This document shows, piece after piece, positions 15,637-35,100 of a stretch of DNA of 64,000 nt (position 1 is the stretch's first letter; each line of letters begins with the position of its first letter). A program made the position numbers and the translations under genes. The notes under the pieces were generated by a model, which saw nothing but the letters and a program-made list of their open reading frames with translations, had not been told where the DNA came from and made no database searches. The stretch lies in assembly GCA_963693365.1 (NCBI GenBank), contig CAVNZM010000003.1, positions 2,985,106 through 3,049,105 of the forward strand, in the 5' to 3' direction. Source of the stretch: Amoebidium appalachense. Lineage: Eukaryota > Protista > Ichthyosporea.

Positions 15637-15654
15637 TACATCAGCAATCTTGCG

Positions 15655-17150
15655 CGAACATCCAAAACATATCAAACCCATCTAGGATATGCAACTGTAT
15701 ATTAACGGATAGCTTTTGGATATCCACACGATATGTAGGATGGTTTCAGTCGAACATATCAATACCATCCACTGGATATATACAACATGTCTATTTCCTC
15801 CTGACCTCCAACCAATGTCCAATATGTATGTAGTTGCATGCTTAGATAGTGATCAAGATATTGCACCCCCAATAGATATCACATATGGATATCCATGCTG
15901 TACCTCCATTGGGCATCGTTATGATATCAAATATCTGGATATGCAATCAATGCATATATGGATACATAAGTGCACCTATAATGGCCATTAAATACACATT
16001 AGATGCATATGAATGCAGACATCAAACGCCACCTGGTTGGTTCGGCATGTATTGGATATTAGACAGATGCCCACAATGGATATCGACGCTGGATATCCAA
16101 TGATGGAATTTCAACTGCATTCCTCCGTTGGATAGCTATATGGATATGTAACATTCTGGATATCCATGTGGATGCTTAGCTGTATATTAGACTGGATCAG
16201 TAACAACATATCCAATACATGACTCACAAGGATATCCGATCAAAATCCCCATACAGATATCAAGATATCCCTGTAGCCAGACATGCAATACACCTAACAA
16301 GTATATCCAATGGCGGTCTATAGTGGATGTCCATATTGGATATCCATTAATATATCCAGATGGATCGCTAATACATGTGCACTTGACCCCAACGCTAATG
16401 AACAATGCACGCCCATATTGGATACGTTCCATGGATATCCATTCCGATATCCAGATACATACGCATTTGCTTGTCCACTAGACCCTCCTATAATAACCAA
16501 AGCATGTCGATTCCACATATCCAATTAGATCACCACATATGGCTCTGACGGCTATCCATATACACCCGCACGCTGATGTCCAATAGACAATCATACTAAG
16601 ACACAATGGATAGCTATACTGGTTATCTAGGCTCAACATCCATACAGATATCTTGATACAGCTGCATTTGCCCATCCACTAGACCCTAATACTAATATCC
16701 AATGCATGACGAAAATACATATCACAATAGACCCCCATACCGATCTCCAACGGCTATCCATATGCACCCCTGCTTACCCATCCAATATATGTCGATATTC
16801 ATATACAATGCATCACCATTCACAATATCTAATTTTAATATCCAACATGATATGCGGATACATATACACCTACATATGCACTCGGCACCTATGTTGATAC
16901 CTAATGCATGAAAAACAAACATATCACAGTAGATGTCCAACCTAATGCCTAACACTTAACAAACATACATGTTTTGGGATATCCATTTACACCCGTATCT
17001 AATACTTAAAATATCACTATAACAGCTATCTGGGTTGATACCCATACAGATAGCCAGATACATCTGTAGCTACATCTCTAGGGTATATCCACTGGATTAA
17101 TTGCATAATTTTGGTACTGTATATCTGCAACATATCTATTAGTGTGTATT
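15655..17150. repeat. Left subterminal array of GGATAT(CC)/ATATCC motifs
   Basis: Dozens of dispersed (T)GGATATCC(A)-like words in both orientations, e.g. ~15718, 16092, 16158, 16230, 16338, 16433, 16977. No convincing ORF. Confidence 0.8.
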
Positions 17151-17426
17151 TGATGTGTAATAAGGCCTTTCCGGATAAACATTATACATCTTTACCGATC
17201 CATCGCATAACCATATGATGGCTAATGACCACCATTGATAAATAATTTATGTCTGGCCTAATATCTATCACATAAGTAATACTTATCCACGGTACAAAGT
17301 TACACAACCACGTTATACTCGGTTCCACAAATCAAGGGGAAGAAATAGATAAAAAAGAGGAAGAAATATATATATATATATATATATATATATATATATA
17401 GTCTATTGCCTTAAAAAAAAAACAGA

Positions 17427-30548: not shown

Positions 30549-31184
30549 CGTCTCCCCCTTGCAGCCGGGGTCTGACAACGACGGCGGCCGTGATGAGGAT
30601 GCAGTTGAGGCTAACGGCAGCGGTGGCCAGGTCAGCGGAGATGGCAGCAACAGCGAGCCCGAGGATGAGACTAGCGAGCGTGAGCAAGTGAAGAACGCTG
30701 ATGTCAGCGAGGAAGAGGGGGACAGGGACGGCGACGCCAGCGAGCGCGATGGGGCCGAGGGCAGCGAGGCCGAGGGCAGCGAGGATGAGGGCAGCAAGAA
30801 GAGGGTGCGCAATGAGGAGGAGGATGAGGAACGCGCCACCGTGACCAAAAAAAGCAAGGAAGATTAACCCCCCCCCCCCCCCCCCCCAATTATCTTTGAT
30901 TGTGCCCAGTGTGTTCAAGTTGATCTTGTGTTTTTTTTCTTTTCTTTATTAATACGTCTTATAGTAGTAACAAAAAAACATGTGTAGTTTGTAAGCAAGA
31001 AGGTCACTGGACCCTGTAATAGTTCATAATCAAAAGTAAGTGTTGGATTGTGTGTCATATGCTCCTGGTGAGCATGACTTAGATAAAACTGGTCATGCTC
31101 CTGTGGGGCATGACGTGTACATAAAGACTTGTGCTGCCGTCGTTGAGCAAGTGCCAGATCCCAACGAGGAGGGGGGGGGGGGGG

Positions 31185-32160
31185 GTATTGCATATCCAAT
31201 TGGGCATTATTTATATATTAGACTACTCATCGAGATATATATTTAATGGACTGCTAAATTATATCAAACTGGATATCTAGTGCATATCCAGACACGGAAG
31301 TGATGATATCCGATTGGATATCACTCATATATTAGATTAGTCCTTAGGATATACATGCAACGGATGAGTATTAGATATCACTGTGATATAGAATACATAT
31401 CCAGACACGTTGTTCGGATTTCTGCCTATATGTCTATTTATATATATAATATATGCAAGGGCCGATATCTAAAGGGTGTCTTTTGGTCGTCTATCACATC
31501 CATTTTCGGTGGTTCATTTACTGATCCAGTGCATATATACTGGGATGCATGTTGGATATCTATGCTTTGGTCTACTTGGCAACTATTATGAGGTCTATTG
31601 GTGACCTGACTGTATATAGTCAATATAGGTATTCTATGCCTATATACATAGCTATCTGTATATCTATTGAACCGCATTTTCGGTAATAAATCTATGCACA
31701 ACCTATATGTATTGCATATCAAATTACATCTCTTTTGTATCAATTACATATGATTTAGGTTACCCACAGCATATCAATTGGATCTCGATTGTGCACCTTT
31801 TATTCATGTTATATATATATATTACGTATCATAATGGATAGGGTTTTCGGCAGGTTTCCAGTCACTGGATACCTTCGTTGCATATCCAGTATATATGTTG
31901 TGCATGTGTATTTGCATATCTAGTGTTCGATATCCACTGGATATCACGTTTCCCGTGGATATCTAGTGGATCCCTAACAGTAGTTATCCAATGGATATCA
32001 GGGTTTTAACAGATATCTATATACATATTAGCCGTAGATATCCAAGATTAATATCCATTTATATTTACATATCTTAAACCCATGAACTGGATGTAGGGTT
32101 ATGTTCAGGATGGGTTTGAGTATATGGATATCTTTAATGTATCTTTTATGGGTTCCGGAT
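31185..32160. repeat. Right subterminal array of GGATAT(CC) motifs
   Basis: Same motif as the left array, e.g. ~31270, 31315, 31553, 31937, 31956, 31992, 32125. Confidence 0.8.
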
Positions 32161-35100
32161 GTTTCGGCAAGATTGCTGATGTACATATTAGTATCATGTG
32201 CAAACTGTACCCTTGTGATATCGCATGGGTATCTCAGCACTACTTTCTTGTATAAGATATCTTCTGGTATCAGGTTCAGGATGTTTTCCGGTGTCATCCA
32301 GACCCGGTGCCAGTTGTCTGTTATATCGTGATAGTAGAAAACTCAGAAATGGGATGTGTGATGTCGGCGGCAAACTTTAGTAGTATTGCAGGCGGCACTG
32401 GTCTTCTTCAGGAAACACACAAAAGCTAAAATAGAAACATTAGGCCTGTAAACTTTAATTATAAACGTATGTAGTTGTAAAATTTAAAAGCTACATTTTT
32501 CAATGTATTTATATTAATTTGGAGGGTTTCTCTCATGATGCATGTCATCCTTGTTAATCATAATATGAAGATTTGCTTTTTTCAAGTTCAAAACAGTTTA
32601 AGGGGCTGCCACTGTCCTGTAAAGCAGTCTGAGGGACGCCGGGACAATATATCGGACCTGACCGGTGTCGCAGCCATAAATCTATTGATAAGTACAAAGT
32701 TACTAGACAGTGAAGTCACAGGGCCAAAATGTACTCGGAAATTGATCGAATTTTAGTTACCCGGTGAGACCCGACATTTTAAACTGTGCCTACTAGTATT
32801 TTGTTAGGTTTGCATGAAGTGGTGTGCTCTGAAAGAAACATGCATATTGGTGCTATGGGGAAGCAAGACACAACATCAATTTGCATACTACTGTTGTAGA
32901 GCTACCTGATTGGTTAAAAATGAAAACGTATGAGCCAATCAAAATCTTTTAACGGAGTTTTTTTTTTTTTTGGGCGGGAAGTTTCGTCATATTCAACGTG
33001 ACAATATCACATCGGATTCACATCGCAGGCCGCGCGCAGGCATCATCATGGTTGATAGAAACAGCTTCGCTGTTGAAACCTCATTATTTTCCTGTTTCTG
33101 TTTTCCCACATGCCGTCTCATTGAAATGTTAGCTCATTTGCACGCGCCACATCATCAAACGCTCTCACGAAAGTGCACTTGGCGACCTGGGAAACCTGAG
33201 CCCAAGGTTCCGAAAGCGAGCATACAACCGTGAATACTCGAAACATACAAGGAAGCGAAGGAGGGAAGAAACATTGGACGAAAAGCTGAAGAGGGCAAAA
33301 ATAGAGAGCGTACAAAAGCTGCATGCACAGGGCCTTATTGACGAGAACGCACAAAGCTTTAGTGTAGACGACGCTTCGCTAGAGTTTGAAGGCCTGTTTG
33401 CTGAGGAAGCAAGGACCAGCACGTGCACAAACGATGCAGACGACACGCACCCCGCACACCCAGATCCGGACCAGCAAAACCACTAAGAAACTACGAACCC
33501 CCCTGGACCATACACCAAGCTTTTGCTACCGAAGAAAAGACGCCTCTCTCAGACAGATAACAACAACATCTGCAGCATTTGGTCTGTGAAATACGAGGAA
33601 CTCCTTTAAACGCAAAACAACGACCAGCTGCAGTCAGTTTGTTTTTGGAATCGGAATACGTTATTTGTAGCGATTGGTTGAAACAGCACCATGGCTCCCT
33701 GGTGTTGACCAAAAGCAGCTCGCCAAAACCGCAGTAAATCGTCGTGCAAATCGATTTTGTGTCTTGCTGCCCCATAGTAGATTTCATGGTTTTGATAGGT
33801 CCTAGTTCTTAGTCATTTCTCCGGCCAGGAATACTGGCCCAAAATGTTGCCATTAGCAGATAATGATCCTGCCACAGCCCCACAGCAGGTCAGTTGCGGT
33901 GCTGCTGCATGTGTGTAGGTCTCTTTAGGCCCAGATTTTTTAATCATAGTTTTTGTCCACCCGTCACCACACTTCGATCCTTGCCTAAGTTGACTAGTAG
34001 TAGTCTAGTAACTAGGAACGGTTTTTAAGCAATGGTGAAGCATTGTATTCTTCAAATCATCTGGTTTCAAACCGACTAATAAAGAAGAATTATAATACTA
34101 AAGAATAGTCAGATGAATTTAGCCATTAAATTTTATTGATTCATTGAAGCTAGATTAATTGATGTTGCATTGCGCTCTCAGCTTGATTTGTCTTCTCGGA
34201 GAAGGGGCATATTAGTTAGATAGGGCGGAGAACAACTGAACTGAAGATAGAATAATATAGTAAGGCAGACACAGCCAAAGGTCCAAATTTCATATTTTCT
34301 CTACATTGAGTGAGTGAGCCTGACATATCTCTGTCGTATCCTAATGTATGTGTACTAGAGACGCGGCACTCTACTAAGTGTACACACACGAAAAGGAACG
34401 AACGTGTACAGAAAAACGGTAAAGTTTATTAAGACCAGGCTCCGACGGGCAAACTTAGATCCGTACGGATTGAGTCTAAGTTACGACTGAGGCCATCAAG
34501 GCCGTGCCCTACAAGATCATCATCACCTGGCCCCCTACGATGCCACATTCCATTAACATTCCGATCTACTTTTATCGTGCGCCTGCACGAGCTAAGTCGA
34601 TCTACTCAACTAATATATTTATCCAAGTCTCACCCCTCACCCTCCCCCTAGTGGCACCGCAGAGTCTAAATCTACATTTCATACTATCCTCCCCCCCCCT
34701 CCCTCCCCCCCTTTCCTCTACATCTAAATATATAAATACGTTTGGCAACATATACTATCAAACCTTGCCAATCCTTACAAAAGGGCTTCTGCCCGAACAA
34801 TGACATTCCTAAGTCCTCCTACGATCTATCCTACACACTAATTAGAATTCTATTGGACGGCTGTCCCGGCTGACGTGGTCCAATGCCCTGCGCCGGCAGA
34901 GGCAAGATGCACGCAGCTGTACAGCTATCTTGCTATCTTGAGGCCCCGGACTTGATCTTGATGATCTGTGGACCCGGGCCACCCCCCCCCCCCCCCCCCC
35001 GATCTCGATCGTAGACTTAGGCTAATCTGCTGAGACGGATTAGTATATGTCAACTCCCCCCCGGCCCCCGGAAAAGCTGAGTCCCACCTCAGTCACATTA

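What the first reader, a model, noticed from the sequence alone, without database searches (positions are those of the whole stretch)
15639..32181. Plavaka-type DNA transposon carrying its own KDM4-like JmjC histone demethylase: candidate anti-silencing system
Seen: one TIR-bounded element holds a spliced Plavaka-like transposase (minus strand) and, divergently, a 6-exon cargo gene whose first surviving exon encodes a JmjC domain. Established: KDM4/JMJD2 enzymes remove H3K9me3/H3K36me3. Their Fe ligands (HxE...H), 2-oxoglutarate lysine and Zn site (C, H, CxC) all have counterparts here (AAHIED, GLKVW, CTNPIQHK, ALHYGF, VCEC). The KDM4 Asn198 position reads Ser, and the Ser288 position reads Ala as in KDM4D. 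Inference: the element captured a heterochromatin eraser that could lift silencing of its own copies. From memory and unverified, KDM4-like genes have been noted in giant mobile elements of the ichthyosporean Amoebidium, so novelty must be checked.
Basis: partly seen in the sequence, partly recalled or inferred. Interest (0 to 1): 0.92.

Follow-up and report, generated by a model that had tools for sequence, protein, structure and literature searches.

The report
Plavaka transposon carrying KDM4-like demethylase gene
A cut-and-paste jumping element holds, between its end repeats, an intron-containing gene for a histone-demethylase-type enzyme that likely helped the element family escape silencing, but this copy lacks the front ends of both its genes and is likely dead.

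Summary
Observation confirmed. 15639-32181 is bounded by inverted repeats (15 bp perfect, 22 of 25) with TA on both flanks. The termini match PlavakaB. Inside are a four-exon transposase-like remnant (minus strand) and a six-exon plus-strand gene (737 open codons) whose first exon is a KDM4-type JmjC domain, with Fe, 2-oxoglutarate and zinc residues kept. New here: both genes lack their 5' parts (no JmjN, no Tyr132 equivalent, no first catalytic Asp region), and a young copia element splits the last exon. Contigs of three public runs appear to continue upstream of the JmjC exon in other sequence, so longer versions likely exist. An element-specific palindrome (TGGATATCCA) fills both ends and recurs in introns of both genes, which argues for long-resident cargo. 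Linkage in intact copies, expression, activity and host identity are not shown. Plavaka elements with TET/JBP or SET/2OG cargo are published, and anti-silencing was already proposed for KDM4-like genes in Amoebidium giant-virus insertions. I found no paper placing a KDM4-like gene inside Plavaka termini. Verdict: new variant of a known kind, interest 0.55.

The parts
15637..15638 (.). Left target-site duplication TA
15639..15663 (+). Left terminal inverted repeat (15 bp perfect, 22 of 25), PlavakaB-type 5'-CATCA
   Evidence: PlavakaB termini in PMC12730594
15664..17464 (.). Left subterminal region rich in the palindrome TGGATATCCA (10 sites with at most 1 mismatch in 15639-17464)
17465..18087 (-). 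Transposase-like gene, last exon (C-terminal domain)
   Evidence: Atlas neighbours at 0.94-0.97, one cluster with DUF6830 in 17% of members, recognition score below the tool's threshold
19895..20126 (-). Transposase-like gene, third surviving exon (acidic linker)
   Evidence: GT-AG, in frame
20656..20860 (-). Transposase-like gene, second surviving exon, with an H-x3-H motif and a Glu 18 residues further on (likely the last catalytic E)
   Evidence: Atlas: 11 of 30 hits in a set with DUF4218 in 17% of members, recognition 2412; motif definition in PMC12730594
21411..21568 (-). Transposase-like gene, first surviving exon; upstream exons with the first two catalytic Asp are absent
21726..21727 (.). 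Inferred deletion junction between intron-like repeat sequence and the JmjC coding sequence
21727..22321 (+). Cargo exon 1: 5'-truncated KDM4-type JmjC domain. Codon starts: Tyr 21817, His 21883, Glu 21889, Ser (Asn198 position) 21913, Lys 21934, Cys 22012, His 22030, Lys 22033, His 22141, Ala 22177, Asn 22183, Cys 22231, Cys 22237
22912..23330 (+). Cargo exon 2 (phase-matched to exon 1; ends in a basic/acidic low-complexity tract)
   Evidence: no Pfam or PDB hit
23496..23822 (+). Cargo exon 3, no known family
   Evidence: no significant Pfam or PDB hit
24287..24496 (+). Cargo exon 4, no known family
24888..25061 (+). Cargo exon 5, no known family
25445..25619 (+). Cargo exon 6, part before the copia insertion
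25620..30548 (-). Ty1/copia LTR retrotransposon inserted in exon 6. One open 1,380-codon gag-pol frame; LTRs identical at 302 of 306 bases; TSD CGTCT at 25615-25619 and 30549-30553
30554..30867 (+). Cargo exon 6, part after the insertion (acidic tail, stop)
30868..32156 (.). Right subterminal region rich in the same palindrome (8 sites with at most 1 mismatch in 30868-32181)
32157..32181 (-). Right terminal inverted repeat
32182..32183 (.). Right target-site duplication TA

Best explanation
This is a PlavakaB-type DNA transposon copy that holds a KDM4-type JmjC gene between its terminal repeats; the copy lacks the 5' parts of both genes and is likely dead, while intact members of the family likely used the enzyme to strip repressive histone methylation from their own chromatin. 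Steps. (1) Shown: termini, TA flanks, two divergent spliced reading frames, KDM4-type active site and zinc site, copia insertion. (2) Inferred: one internal deletion removed both promoters and both N-termini, and longer versions exist in the same organisms. (3) Inferred: the gene is long-resident, selected cargo and not a passenger. (4) Inferred from KDM4 biochemistry: the intact protein is an Fe/2-oxoglutarate demethylase, most likely of H3K9me2/3. (5) Speculative: the roughly 540-residue C-terminal region or the transposase binds the TGGATATCCA arrays and so aims the enzyme at the element. My rough odds: (1) 0.95, (2) 0.8, (3) 0.75, (4) 0.6, anti-silencing as the selected use 0.5, (5) 0.25.
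For: Termini share their first 8 bases with PlavakaB-1_SCH, which also has 2-bp TSDs; the four ESTA consensus starts I saw begin CACCAC. The JmjC exon matches 22 of 23 columns that are at least 90% conserved among 147 relatives, but only 20 of 89 variable columns, which fits long selection on the catalytic core. Its four zinc positions read C-H-C-C, the KDM4 state. The model built from a 97-row alignment has pLDDT 83.5, and all 38 Foldseek rows shown are KDM4 structures. Both frames stay open across 8 GT-AG introns. TGGATATCCA with at most 1 mismatch occurs 21 times in the 11.6 kb of element, 0 times in the 4.9-kb copia and once in the 47.5 kb outside; at 2 mismatches cargo introns 1 and 3 hold 4 and 2 sites. 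GGATA/TATCC counts in those two introns are 6 and 5 against 0.7 and 0.8 expected. Diverged JmjC relatives that stay in frame occur in 3 of 4 runs laid, and 3 of the 4 listed substitutions are synonymous. Precedent: PlavakaB with TET/JBP (PMC12730594), Plavaka with SET and 2OG genes beside inverted-repeat arrays (10.1101/2025.02.11.637652).
Against: Only one broken copy was seen whole; no genome is held, so neither an intact copy nor an empty site was examined. No listed contig bridges the transposase exon and the JmjC exon. In run X1 the JmjC contig is about 8 times deeper than the transposase-exon contig (1021.8 against 121.5), whereas X2 (92-119 against 77.5) and X5 (251-272 against 267) are near 1:1; the tool warns that depth is no copy number. 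Asn198, a 2-oxoglutarate contact (PMC8162366), reads Ser, as in 15 of 147 relatives. The transposase has no Pfam or PDB hit. Splicing of exon 1 to exons 2-6 rests on phase and donor style only, and exon 1 has lower GC3 (0.51) than exons 2-6 (0.63-0.86). The relatives were selected by likeness to the query, which inflates the conserved-column match. Subterminal motif arrays could simply be transposase binding sites.
Confidence: 0.5

Rival explanations
1. Chimera: the left half of a Plavaka copy was joined at 21726/21727, by a deletion or an assembly error, to a JmjC gene belonging to another element (for example a second Plavaka family member or a giant-virus insertion), so the intact transposase-plus-JmjC unit never existed.
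For: The window's junction is not among the listed contigs of any of the 3 runs that cover both sides; the JmjC contig in X1 is about 8-fold deeper than the transposase-exon contig. A 2-bp TA match is weak. KDM4-likes are reported in 52 giant-virus insertions of Amoebidium (PMC11244446).
Against: The terminal repeat occurs once per orientation and matches at 22 of 25 bases. The same palindrome marks both ends and introns on both sides of the junction, so the JmjC half is Plavaka-type DNA in any case. Depths are near 1:1 in X2 and X5.
Confidence: 0.15
2. Passive capture: the element picked up a fragment of a host KDM4 gene, as Pack-type transposons do, and the fragment has no role.
For: The JmjC part is a fragment in the one copy seen whole. 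No expression evidence was obtained.
Against: The domain is at most about 40% identical to any library protein yet keeps 22 of 23 conserved columns. The frame is open over 737 codons, the introns carry the element's own motif, and in-frame relatives exist.
Confidence: 0.12
3. The cargo is selected but not as a self-directed H3K9 eraser: it acts on another mark or a non-histone protein, acts genome-wide, or opens target chromatin or aids repair during transposition.
For: Long branch among divergent KDM4-likes; Asn198 replaced by Ser; no PHD or Tudor domain; the substrate-binding surface of the missing N-terminal half cannot be read. PMC11244446 itself raises DNA breaks and integration as an alternative use.
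Against: The methyl-lysine pocket residues Tyr177, Lys241 and Asn290 (PMC8162366) and Gly170 are all kept.
Confidence: 0.2

Closest known systems
PlavakaB transposons of Agaricomycotina, including TET/JBP-carrying families (Kojima 2025, PMC12730594)
   Same: 5'-CATCA..TGATG-3' termini, 2-bp TSD, H(3-4)H motif before the last Glu, a 2-oxoglutarate dioxygenase as cargo, proposed escape from silencing
   Different: Cargo is a KDM4-type histone-demethylase fold, not a DNA-modifying TET/JBP; genes are intron-rich with microsatellite introns; this copy is deleted
KDM4-like JmjC genes in giant-virus insertions of Amoebidium appalachense (Sarre et al. 2024, PMC11244446)
   Same: Divergent KDM4-like, multi-exon, lacking PHD and Tudor domains, multi-copy, in mobile DNA, proposed to counter H3K9me3 silencing
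   Different: There they are assigned to giant-virus insertions, and the paper's Plavaka repeats are described with tyrosine recombinases and no JmjC in the passages I read. Here the gene lies inside Plavaka termini with no viral gene. I could not compare sequences, and the host of this window is not established.
Giant Plavaka elements of red algae with PAG1-3 (10.1101/2025.02.11.637652)
   Same: 17-19 kb Plavaka elements with chromatin- or DNA-modifier cargo, and inverted-repeat arrays proposed as binding sites for a cargo 2OG oxygenase
   Different: Cargo is an adenine methylase-SET protein and a ParB-like-2OG protein, not a KDM4-type JmjC
VANDAL/VANC of Arabidopsis (Hosaka et al. 2017, PMC5735166)
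   Same: A short motif densely enriched in non-coding regions of one transposon family
   Different: VANC binding and hypomethylation are shown experimentally; no binding is shown here, and the cargo carries its own predicted enzyme domain
Human KDM4A-E and yeast Rph1
   Same: Fe triad, Lys206, Tyr177, Lys241, Asn290, zinc site and fold (TM-score about 0.75 over the query)
   Different: About 30% identity, Asn198 is Ser, a 10-residue insertion before the HxE strand, JmjN and Tyr132 missing in this copy, no PHD/Tudor, unrelated C-terminal region

Membership tests
PlavakaB (CMCT clade) | Termini 5'-CATCA..TGATG-3' | tested here: met
   first 8 bases equal PlavakaB-1_SCH
PlavakaB (CMCT clade) | 2- or 3-bp target-site duplication | tested here: met
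   TA on both flanks; no empty site seen
PlavakaB (CMCT clade) | H(3-4)H motif before the last catalytic Glu | tested here: met
   H-x3-H and a Glu 18 residues later in exon 20860-20656; assignment by motif reading, not by alignment to Plavaka proteins
PlavakaB (CMCT clade) | First two catalytic Asp, C(2)C motif, Plavaka domain (PF18759, accession recalled) | tested here: inconclusive
   That part of the gene is absent from this copy; no Pfam hit on the 4 surviving exons. A C-x2-C lies just before the H-x3-H, but its homology is not established.
PlavakaB (CMCT clade) | Transposase groups with PlavakaB in a tree | not testable with these tools
   No Plavaka reference proteins were obtained (empty or chance hits)
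PlavakaB (CMCT clade) | Dispersed copies with different flanks | not tested
   No genome held; terminal pattern found 0 times in metagenome contigs; ends were not examined in read data
ESTA (CMCT clade, TA TSD) | TA TSD and CACCAC-type termini | tested here: not met
   TSD fits, but 4 of 4 ESTA consensus starts seen begin CACCAC
KDM4/JMJD2 | JmjC domain with HxE...H iron triad and 2-oxoglutarate Lys206 | tested here: met
KDM4/JMJD2 | C-H-C-C zinc site that KDM5-type domains lack (numbering recalled) | tested here: met
   125 of 148 rows read CHCC, including the window; the 10 rows without the site lie apart in the tree
KDM4/JMJD2 | Methyl-lysine pocket Tyr177, Lys241, Asn290 | tested here: met
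   roles from PMC8162366
KDM4/JMJD2 | Asn198 contact to 2-oxoglutarate | tested here: not met
   Ser here and in 15 of 147 relatives, including the closest single-domain hit P0002
KDM4/JMJD2 | JmjN domain and Tyr132 | tested here: not met
   Absent from this copy; the model covers about 183 of 344 residues of the KDM4A core. JmjN is needed for activity (PMC11831885). Intact copies not seen.
KDM4/JMJD2 | PHD and Tudor reader domains (KDM4A-C only) | tested here: not met
   No such Pfam hit on exons 2-6
KDM4/JMJD2 | Demethylation of H3K9me2/3 or H3K36me2/3 | not testable with these tools
   Needs an enzyme assay
VANC-like sequence-specific anti-silencing system | Family-specific motif enriched in non-coding parts of the element | tested here: met
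   21 sites in the element, 0 in the copia, 1 outside
VANC-like sequence-specific anti-silencing system | Element-encoded protein binds the motif and removes silencing marks there | not testable with these tools
   Needs EMSA, ChIP and chromatin mapping

The most novel reading that the evidence does not exclude
Intact members are DNA transposons that encode a self-targeting histone demethylase: a KDM4 catalytic domain fused to a new DNA-binding region that reads the element's TGGATATCCA arrays. If the host is Amoebidium or kin, some of the intron-rich 'giant-virus' KDM4-like genes reported there are Plavaka cargo, or move between Plavaka elements and viral insertions. That would explain why they keep introns and why no KDM4-like gene was found in free giant-virus genomes.
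Probability: 0.2. Interest if true: 0.85.

Novelty: new variant of a known kind. Interest (0 to 1): 0.55.

Why it matters
Only VANC proteins are described as shown transposon-encoded, self-targeted anti-silencing factors (as stated in 10.1101/2025.02.11.637652). TET/JBP, SET and 2OG cargo of Plavaka elements is untested. A Plavaka family with a KDM4-type enzyme extends this to erasure of histone marks, and the enzyme class has standard peptide assays. The candidate binding motif gives a direct test of targeting. It could also change the reading of where the KDM4-like genes of endogenized giant viruses came from. The value is limited until an intact copy is found.

Tried and rejected
No whole genome is held, so copy number, synteny with a host KDM4 locus and dN/dS were not computed. 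Word-indexed protein searches found nothing: JmjC exon against longer proteins (0 of 1060 candidates) and near-length proteins (0 of 84); transposase exon against longer proteins (0 of 5). No relative of the JmjC exon in viral contigs (0 of 3 stretches) or metagenome contigs (0 of 94); the terminal pattern had 0 matches in metagenome contigs. Exact look-up of 7 window ORFs: 0 of 7 present. No RNA holder listed, which is no evidence on expression. The single-sequence fold was unusable (pLDDT 30.8). The viral structure library gave no KDM4-type match; the best was a JmjC protein at 16% identity. PDB sequence searches with two transposase exons and two cargo exons gave only chance hits. HMMER hits P0001, P0004 and P0052 were dropped from alignments and trees: P0001 is a whitefly protein made of tandem JmjC repeats, the other two are repetitive non-JmjC hits. 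Trees disagree on the sister of the window's domain (P0074/P0091 with support 0.70; P0002 with no support value printed), so no donor is claimed. Rejected: ESTA (termini differ); hidden JmjN exons on the plus strand inside the transposase introns (none in the six-frame reading); Ala288 as a substrate clue; a host gene trapped between two ends (its introns carry the element's motif). The 14-bit and weaker Pfam hits on exons 3 and 4 and the last transposase exon are below cut-off and ignored.

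
Full report
1. Observation. The finding's coordinates are the ends of one inverted repeat: CATCAGCAATCTTGC at 15639 and its reverse complement ending at 32181, each flanked by TA. The match extends to 22 of 25 bases, and the 11-base core occurs once per orientation in the window. 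The element is 16,543 bp, or 11,609 bp without the copia insertion and one copy of its TSD. Kojima 2025 (PMC12730594; I saw the abstract, passages, section 4.2 and parts of the supplement) defines PlavakaB by 5'-CATCA..TGATG-3' termini and 2-3 bp TSDs. In its Figure S2 text, PlavakaB-1_SCH starts with the same 8 bases and has 2-bp TSDs. ESTA elements also duplicate TA, but the 4 consensus starts I saw begin CACCAC.

2. The minus-strand gene. Four exons joined at GT-AG introns give 405 open codons. None has a meaningful Pfam or PDB hit. The ESM Atlas places the last exon beside eukaryotic, commonest fungal, unnamed clusters (0.94-0.97) and one cluster with DUF6830 in 17% of members; its recognition score was below the tool's threshold. 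The second exon scores 0.91-0.94, with 11 of 30 hits in a set where 17% carry DUF4218. That DUF4218 goes with CACTA transposases and DUF6830 with fungal Plavaka-like proteins is recalled, not from a call. The second exon has H-x3-H followed 18 residues later by a Glu, matching the H(3-4)H motif before the last catalytic E described for this clade. Everything upstream, including the first two Asp, is missing. So the family call rests mainly on the termini, with the protein consistent.

3. The plus-strand gene. Six exons, five GT-AG introns, 737 codons without a stop when the copia is skipped; with the copia in place the frame stops at codon 634. Exon 1 hits JmjC PF02373 at 38.1 bits against a cut-off of 24. 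In the PDB sequence search the best hits were Arabidopsis JMJ14 (8.3e-12), 2w2i (1.8e-11), Rph1 and KDM4D/A/C/B, with most KDM5 chains far behind. Against 147 aligned relatives from the HMMER search, the window has the iron triad, Lys206, Phe185, Trp208, Lys241, Asn290 and all four zinc ligands; Tyr177 and Gly170 are also kept. Asn198 reads Ser (15 of 147 relatives) and Ser288 reads Ala (97 of 147). Roles of Tyr132, Lys206, Asn198, Tyr177, Lys241 and Asn290 are from passages of PMC8162366; the numbering of the iron and zinc ligands is recalled. The exon matches 22 of 23 columns conserved at 90% or more, 12 of 20 at 70-90%, 13 of 31 at 50-70% and 20 of 89 below 50%; the relatives were picked by likeness to the query, so this is somewhat inflated. 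A model from a 97-row alignment has pLDDT 83.5, and all 38 Foldseek rows shown are KDM4 chains, TM-score 0.71-0.76 over the query but only 0.42-0.46 over the target: about half of the catalytic core is present. JmjN and Tyr132 are absent, and JmjN is needed for activity (passages of PMC11831885). The closest single-domain hit, P0002 (unnamed, Logan, 36% over 154 residues), shares the Ser and the insertion region and has sequence upstream. The trees put the window on a long branch among zinc-site-bearing divergent KDM4-likes but disagree on its sister. Exons 2-6 have no known family. Their joining to exon 1 is inferred from phase and from a donor followed by a C-run, as at two other introns of the gene.

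4. This copy is likely a dead deletion derivative. Exon 1 begins directly after a TG-repeat motif with no credible acceptor; the only nearby in-frame AG follows a G-run. Only 158 bp separate the two remnants. Twenty-four runs were listed; 14 hold the exon or part of it, from 4 studies, two possibly the window's own source. I laid 4 of them on 21410-22325. In X1, X2 and X5 the contig carrying the exon starts matching at 21727 and has 995, 246 and 164 more letters on that side. None of these records is also listed on the transposase exon, which separate records cover. I read this as longer versions of the gene with a different upstream sequence. Caveats: the letters were not shown, the tool skipped the low-complexity stretch left of the junction and dropped loose-end rows there, the orientation of the X1 record is deduced from the overlap of two X2 records, and X1 and X2 may be the source. 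No listed contig bridges the two genes, so the junction could also be an assembly error. The copia has one open 1,380-codon frame and LTRs identical at 302 of 306 bases, so it inserted recently.

5. Is it real cargo? The 8-mer GATATCCA occurs 27 times in 3.9 kb of chosen non-coding element sequence and 0 times in 47.4 kb outside (regions chosen after seeing the motif). Without choosing regions, TGGATATCCA with at most one mismatch occurs 21 times in the element without the copia, 0 in the copia and 1 outside; with two mismatches 55, 3 and 11. Sites lie in both subterminal regions, in transposase intron 1 and in cargo introns 1 and 3; cargo introns 2, 4 and 5 have none, and exons hold 1 of the 55. 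So the JmjC gene's introns are made of the element's own kind of sequence, which argues against a trapped host gene. One search also shows diverged JmjC relatives in 3 of 4 runs (10-11 differences over 75 bases in X1 and X2). By hand translation their loose ends run on in frame for 10 codons each side without a stop, 5 of 10 and 4 of 10 residues identical in X1. Of the 4 listed substitutions 3 are synonymous and one, in a depth-2.8 contig, is Ile to Val. Against strict linkage: in X1 the JmjC contig is about 8 times deeper than the transposase-exon contig, while X2 and X5 are near 1:1; the tool warns that depth is no copy number.

6. Mechanism. Most likely, intact elements transcribed transposase and cargo divergently, and the cargo is an Fe/2-oxoglutarate demethylase that removes H3K9me2/3 and keeps the copy transcribable or excisable (inferred from KDM4 biochemistry; nothing tested). 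The palindromic arrays suggest a dimeric binder. That may be the transposase, as for subterminal repeats of CACTA elements (recalled), or the cargo's C-terminal region, as VANC binds motifs in non-coding parts of VANDAL elements (PMC5735166; abstract and one results section). Rivals are a chimeric junction (0.15), passive capture (0.12) and another substrate or use (0.2).

7. Host. Not established. Neighbouring genes are eukaryotic (aromatic amino acid hydroxylase, RsmB/F methyltransferase, Fringe-like). The gypsy element at 34332-42698 is depleted in CGC/GCG (observed/expected 0.20, against 0.74-1.06 for other CG contexts), which recalls the CGC/GCG methylation of Amoebidium (PMC11244446 section 6). 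The host-gene region shows no such selective depletion (0.51 against 0.41-0.74). This is a lead only.

8. What is known. Sarre et al. 2024 (PMC11244446; abstract, passages, sections 6 and 11 whole, two supplement legends; figures not seen) report JmjC-only, multi-exon KDM4-like genes in 52 giant-virus insertions, none in public giant-virus genomes, and propose that they counter host silencing. They describe Plavaka-flanked repeats separately, with tyrosine recombinases. Kojima 2025 shows TET/JBP cargo in PlavakaB. The Bostrychia preprint (10.1101/2025.02.11.637652; passages and section 8) shows 17-19 kb Plavaka elements with SET, adenine-methylase and 2OG cargo beside inverted-repeat arrays. 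The chromatin survey 10.1101/2021.11.30.470311 (passages) lists 823 chromatin-TE fusions and has no 'JmjC' in its main text; its supplementary Table 6, which I could not see, may bear on novelty, as may the Bostrychia supplements and Repbase. Iyer et al. 2014 was not read. Nine searches of the open library, judged from listings except for the papers named, gave no report of a KDM4-like gene inside a Plavaka or other TIR element; the only paper with Plavaka and JmjC together was Sarre et al.. Unchecked notes of this scan describe JmjC cargo in other genomes, including a giant Plavaka in a mushroom; they are leads and suggest the theme recurs.

9. Verdict. It works like TET-carrying PlavakaB with a histone eraser in place of a DNA eraser (inferred). 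It meets the PlavakaB terminal criteria; the enzyme is KDM4-like but this copy fails the JmjN, Tyr132 and Asn198 tests. New variant of a known kind; interest 0.55. Left open: other copies and their flanks, copia-free alleles, splicing and expression.

Noticed in passing
window 34332-42698: Ty3/gypsy LTR retrotransposon on the minus strand, 722-bp LTRs 99.4% identical, pol split over several frames, with marked CGC/GCG depletion (o/e 0.20).
   Followed up: partly
window 13106-13841: Solo LTR about 83% identical to the gypsy LTRs, in opposite orientation.
   Followed up: no
window 25620-30548: The copia element has one uninterrupted 1,380-codon gag-pol frame and near-identical LTRs, so it may be young enough to be active.
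   Followed up: partly
window 17465-17480: The transposase frame stops just after a G-run, while another frame continues a few more codons with plausible residues; possibly a one-base slip or a sequencing error in the run.
   Followed up: no
window 18757-19678: About 300-bp unit repeated three times inside the third transposase intron, among CA microsatellites.
   Followed up: no
window 689-2378: Tandem array of a roughly 183-bp unit, 89-93% identical between copies.
   Followed up: no
window 7789-9045 and 10965-12221: 1,257-bp direct repeat, 99.7% identical, about 1.9 kb apart; could be the ends of another element or a recent duplication.
   Followed up: no
window 14580-14989, 32853-33777, 44428-45077, 62509-62797: Short inverted-repeat pairs that look like small non-autonomous DNA elements.
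   Followed up: no
window 47783-58966: Host gene exons: aromatic amino acid hydroxylase (47783-48088), PAN domain (50440-51057), Fringe-like (52538-53026), RsmB/F RNA methyltransferase (56777-58966).
   Followed up: partly
window 21540-21573 (runs X1, X5): Low-depth contigs of a diverged transposase relative match 34 bases of the first surviving exon, so a second family likely exists.
   Followed up: no
protein P0001: A Bemisia tabaci protein annotated with about 15 tandem partial JmjC repeats; possibly an assembly or annotation artefact.
   Followed up: no
protein P0002: Unnamed JmjC-only KDM4-like protein from Logan contigs with the same Asn-to-Ser change; its genomic context could show whether this subfamily is generally mobile.
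   Followed up: partly
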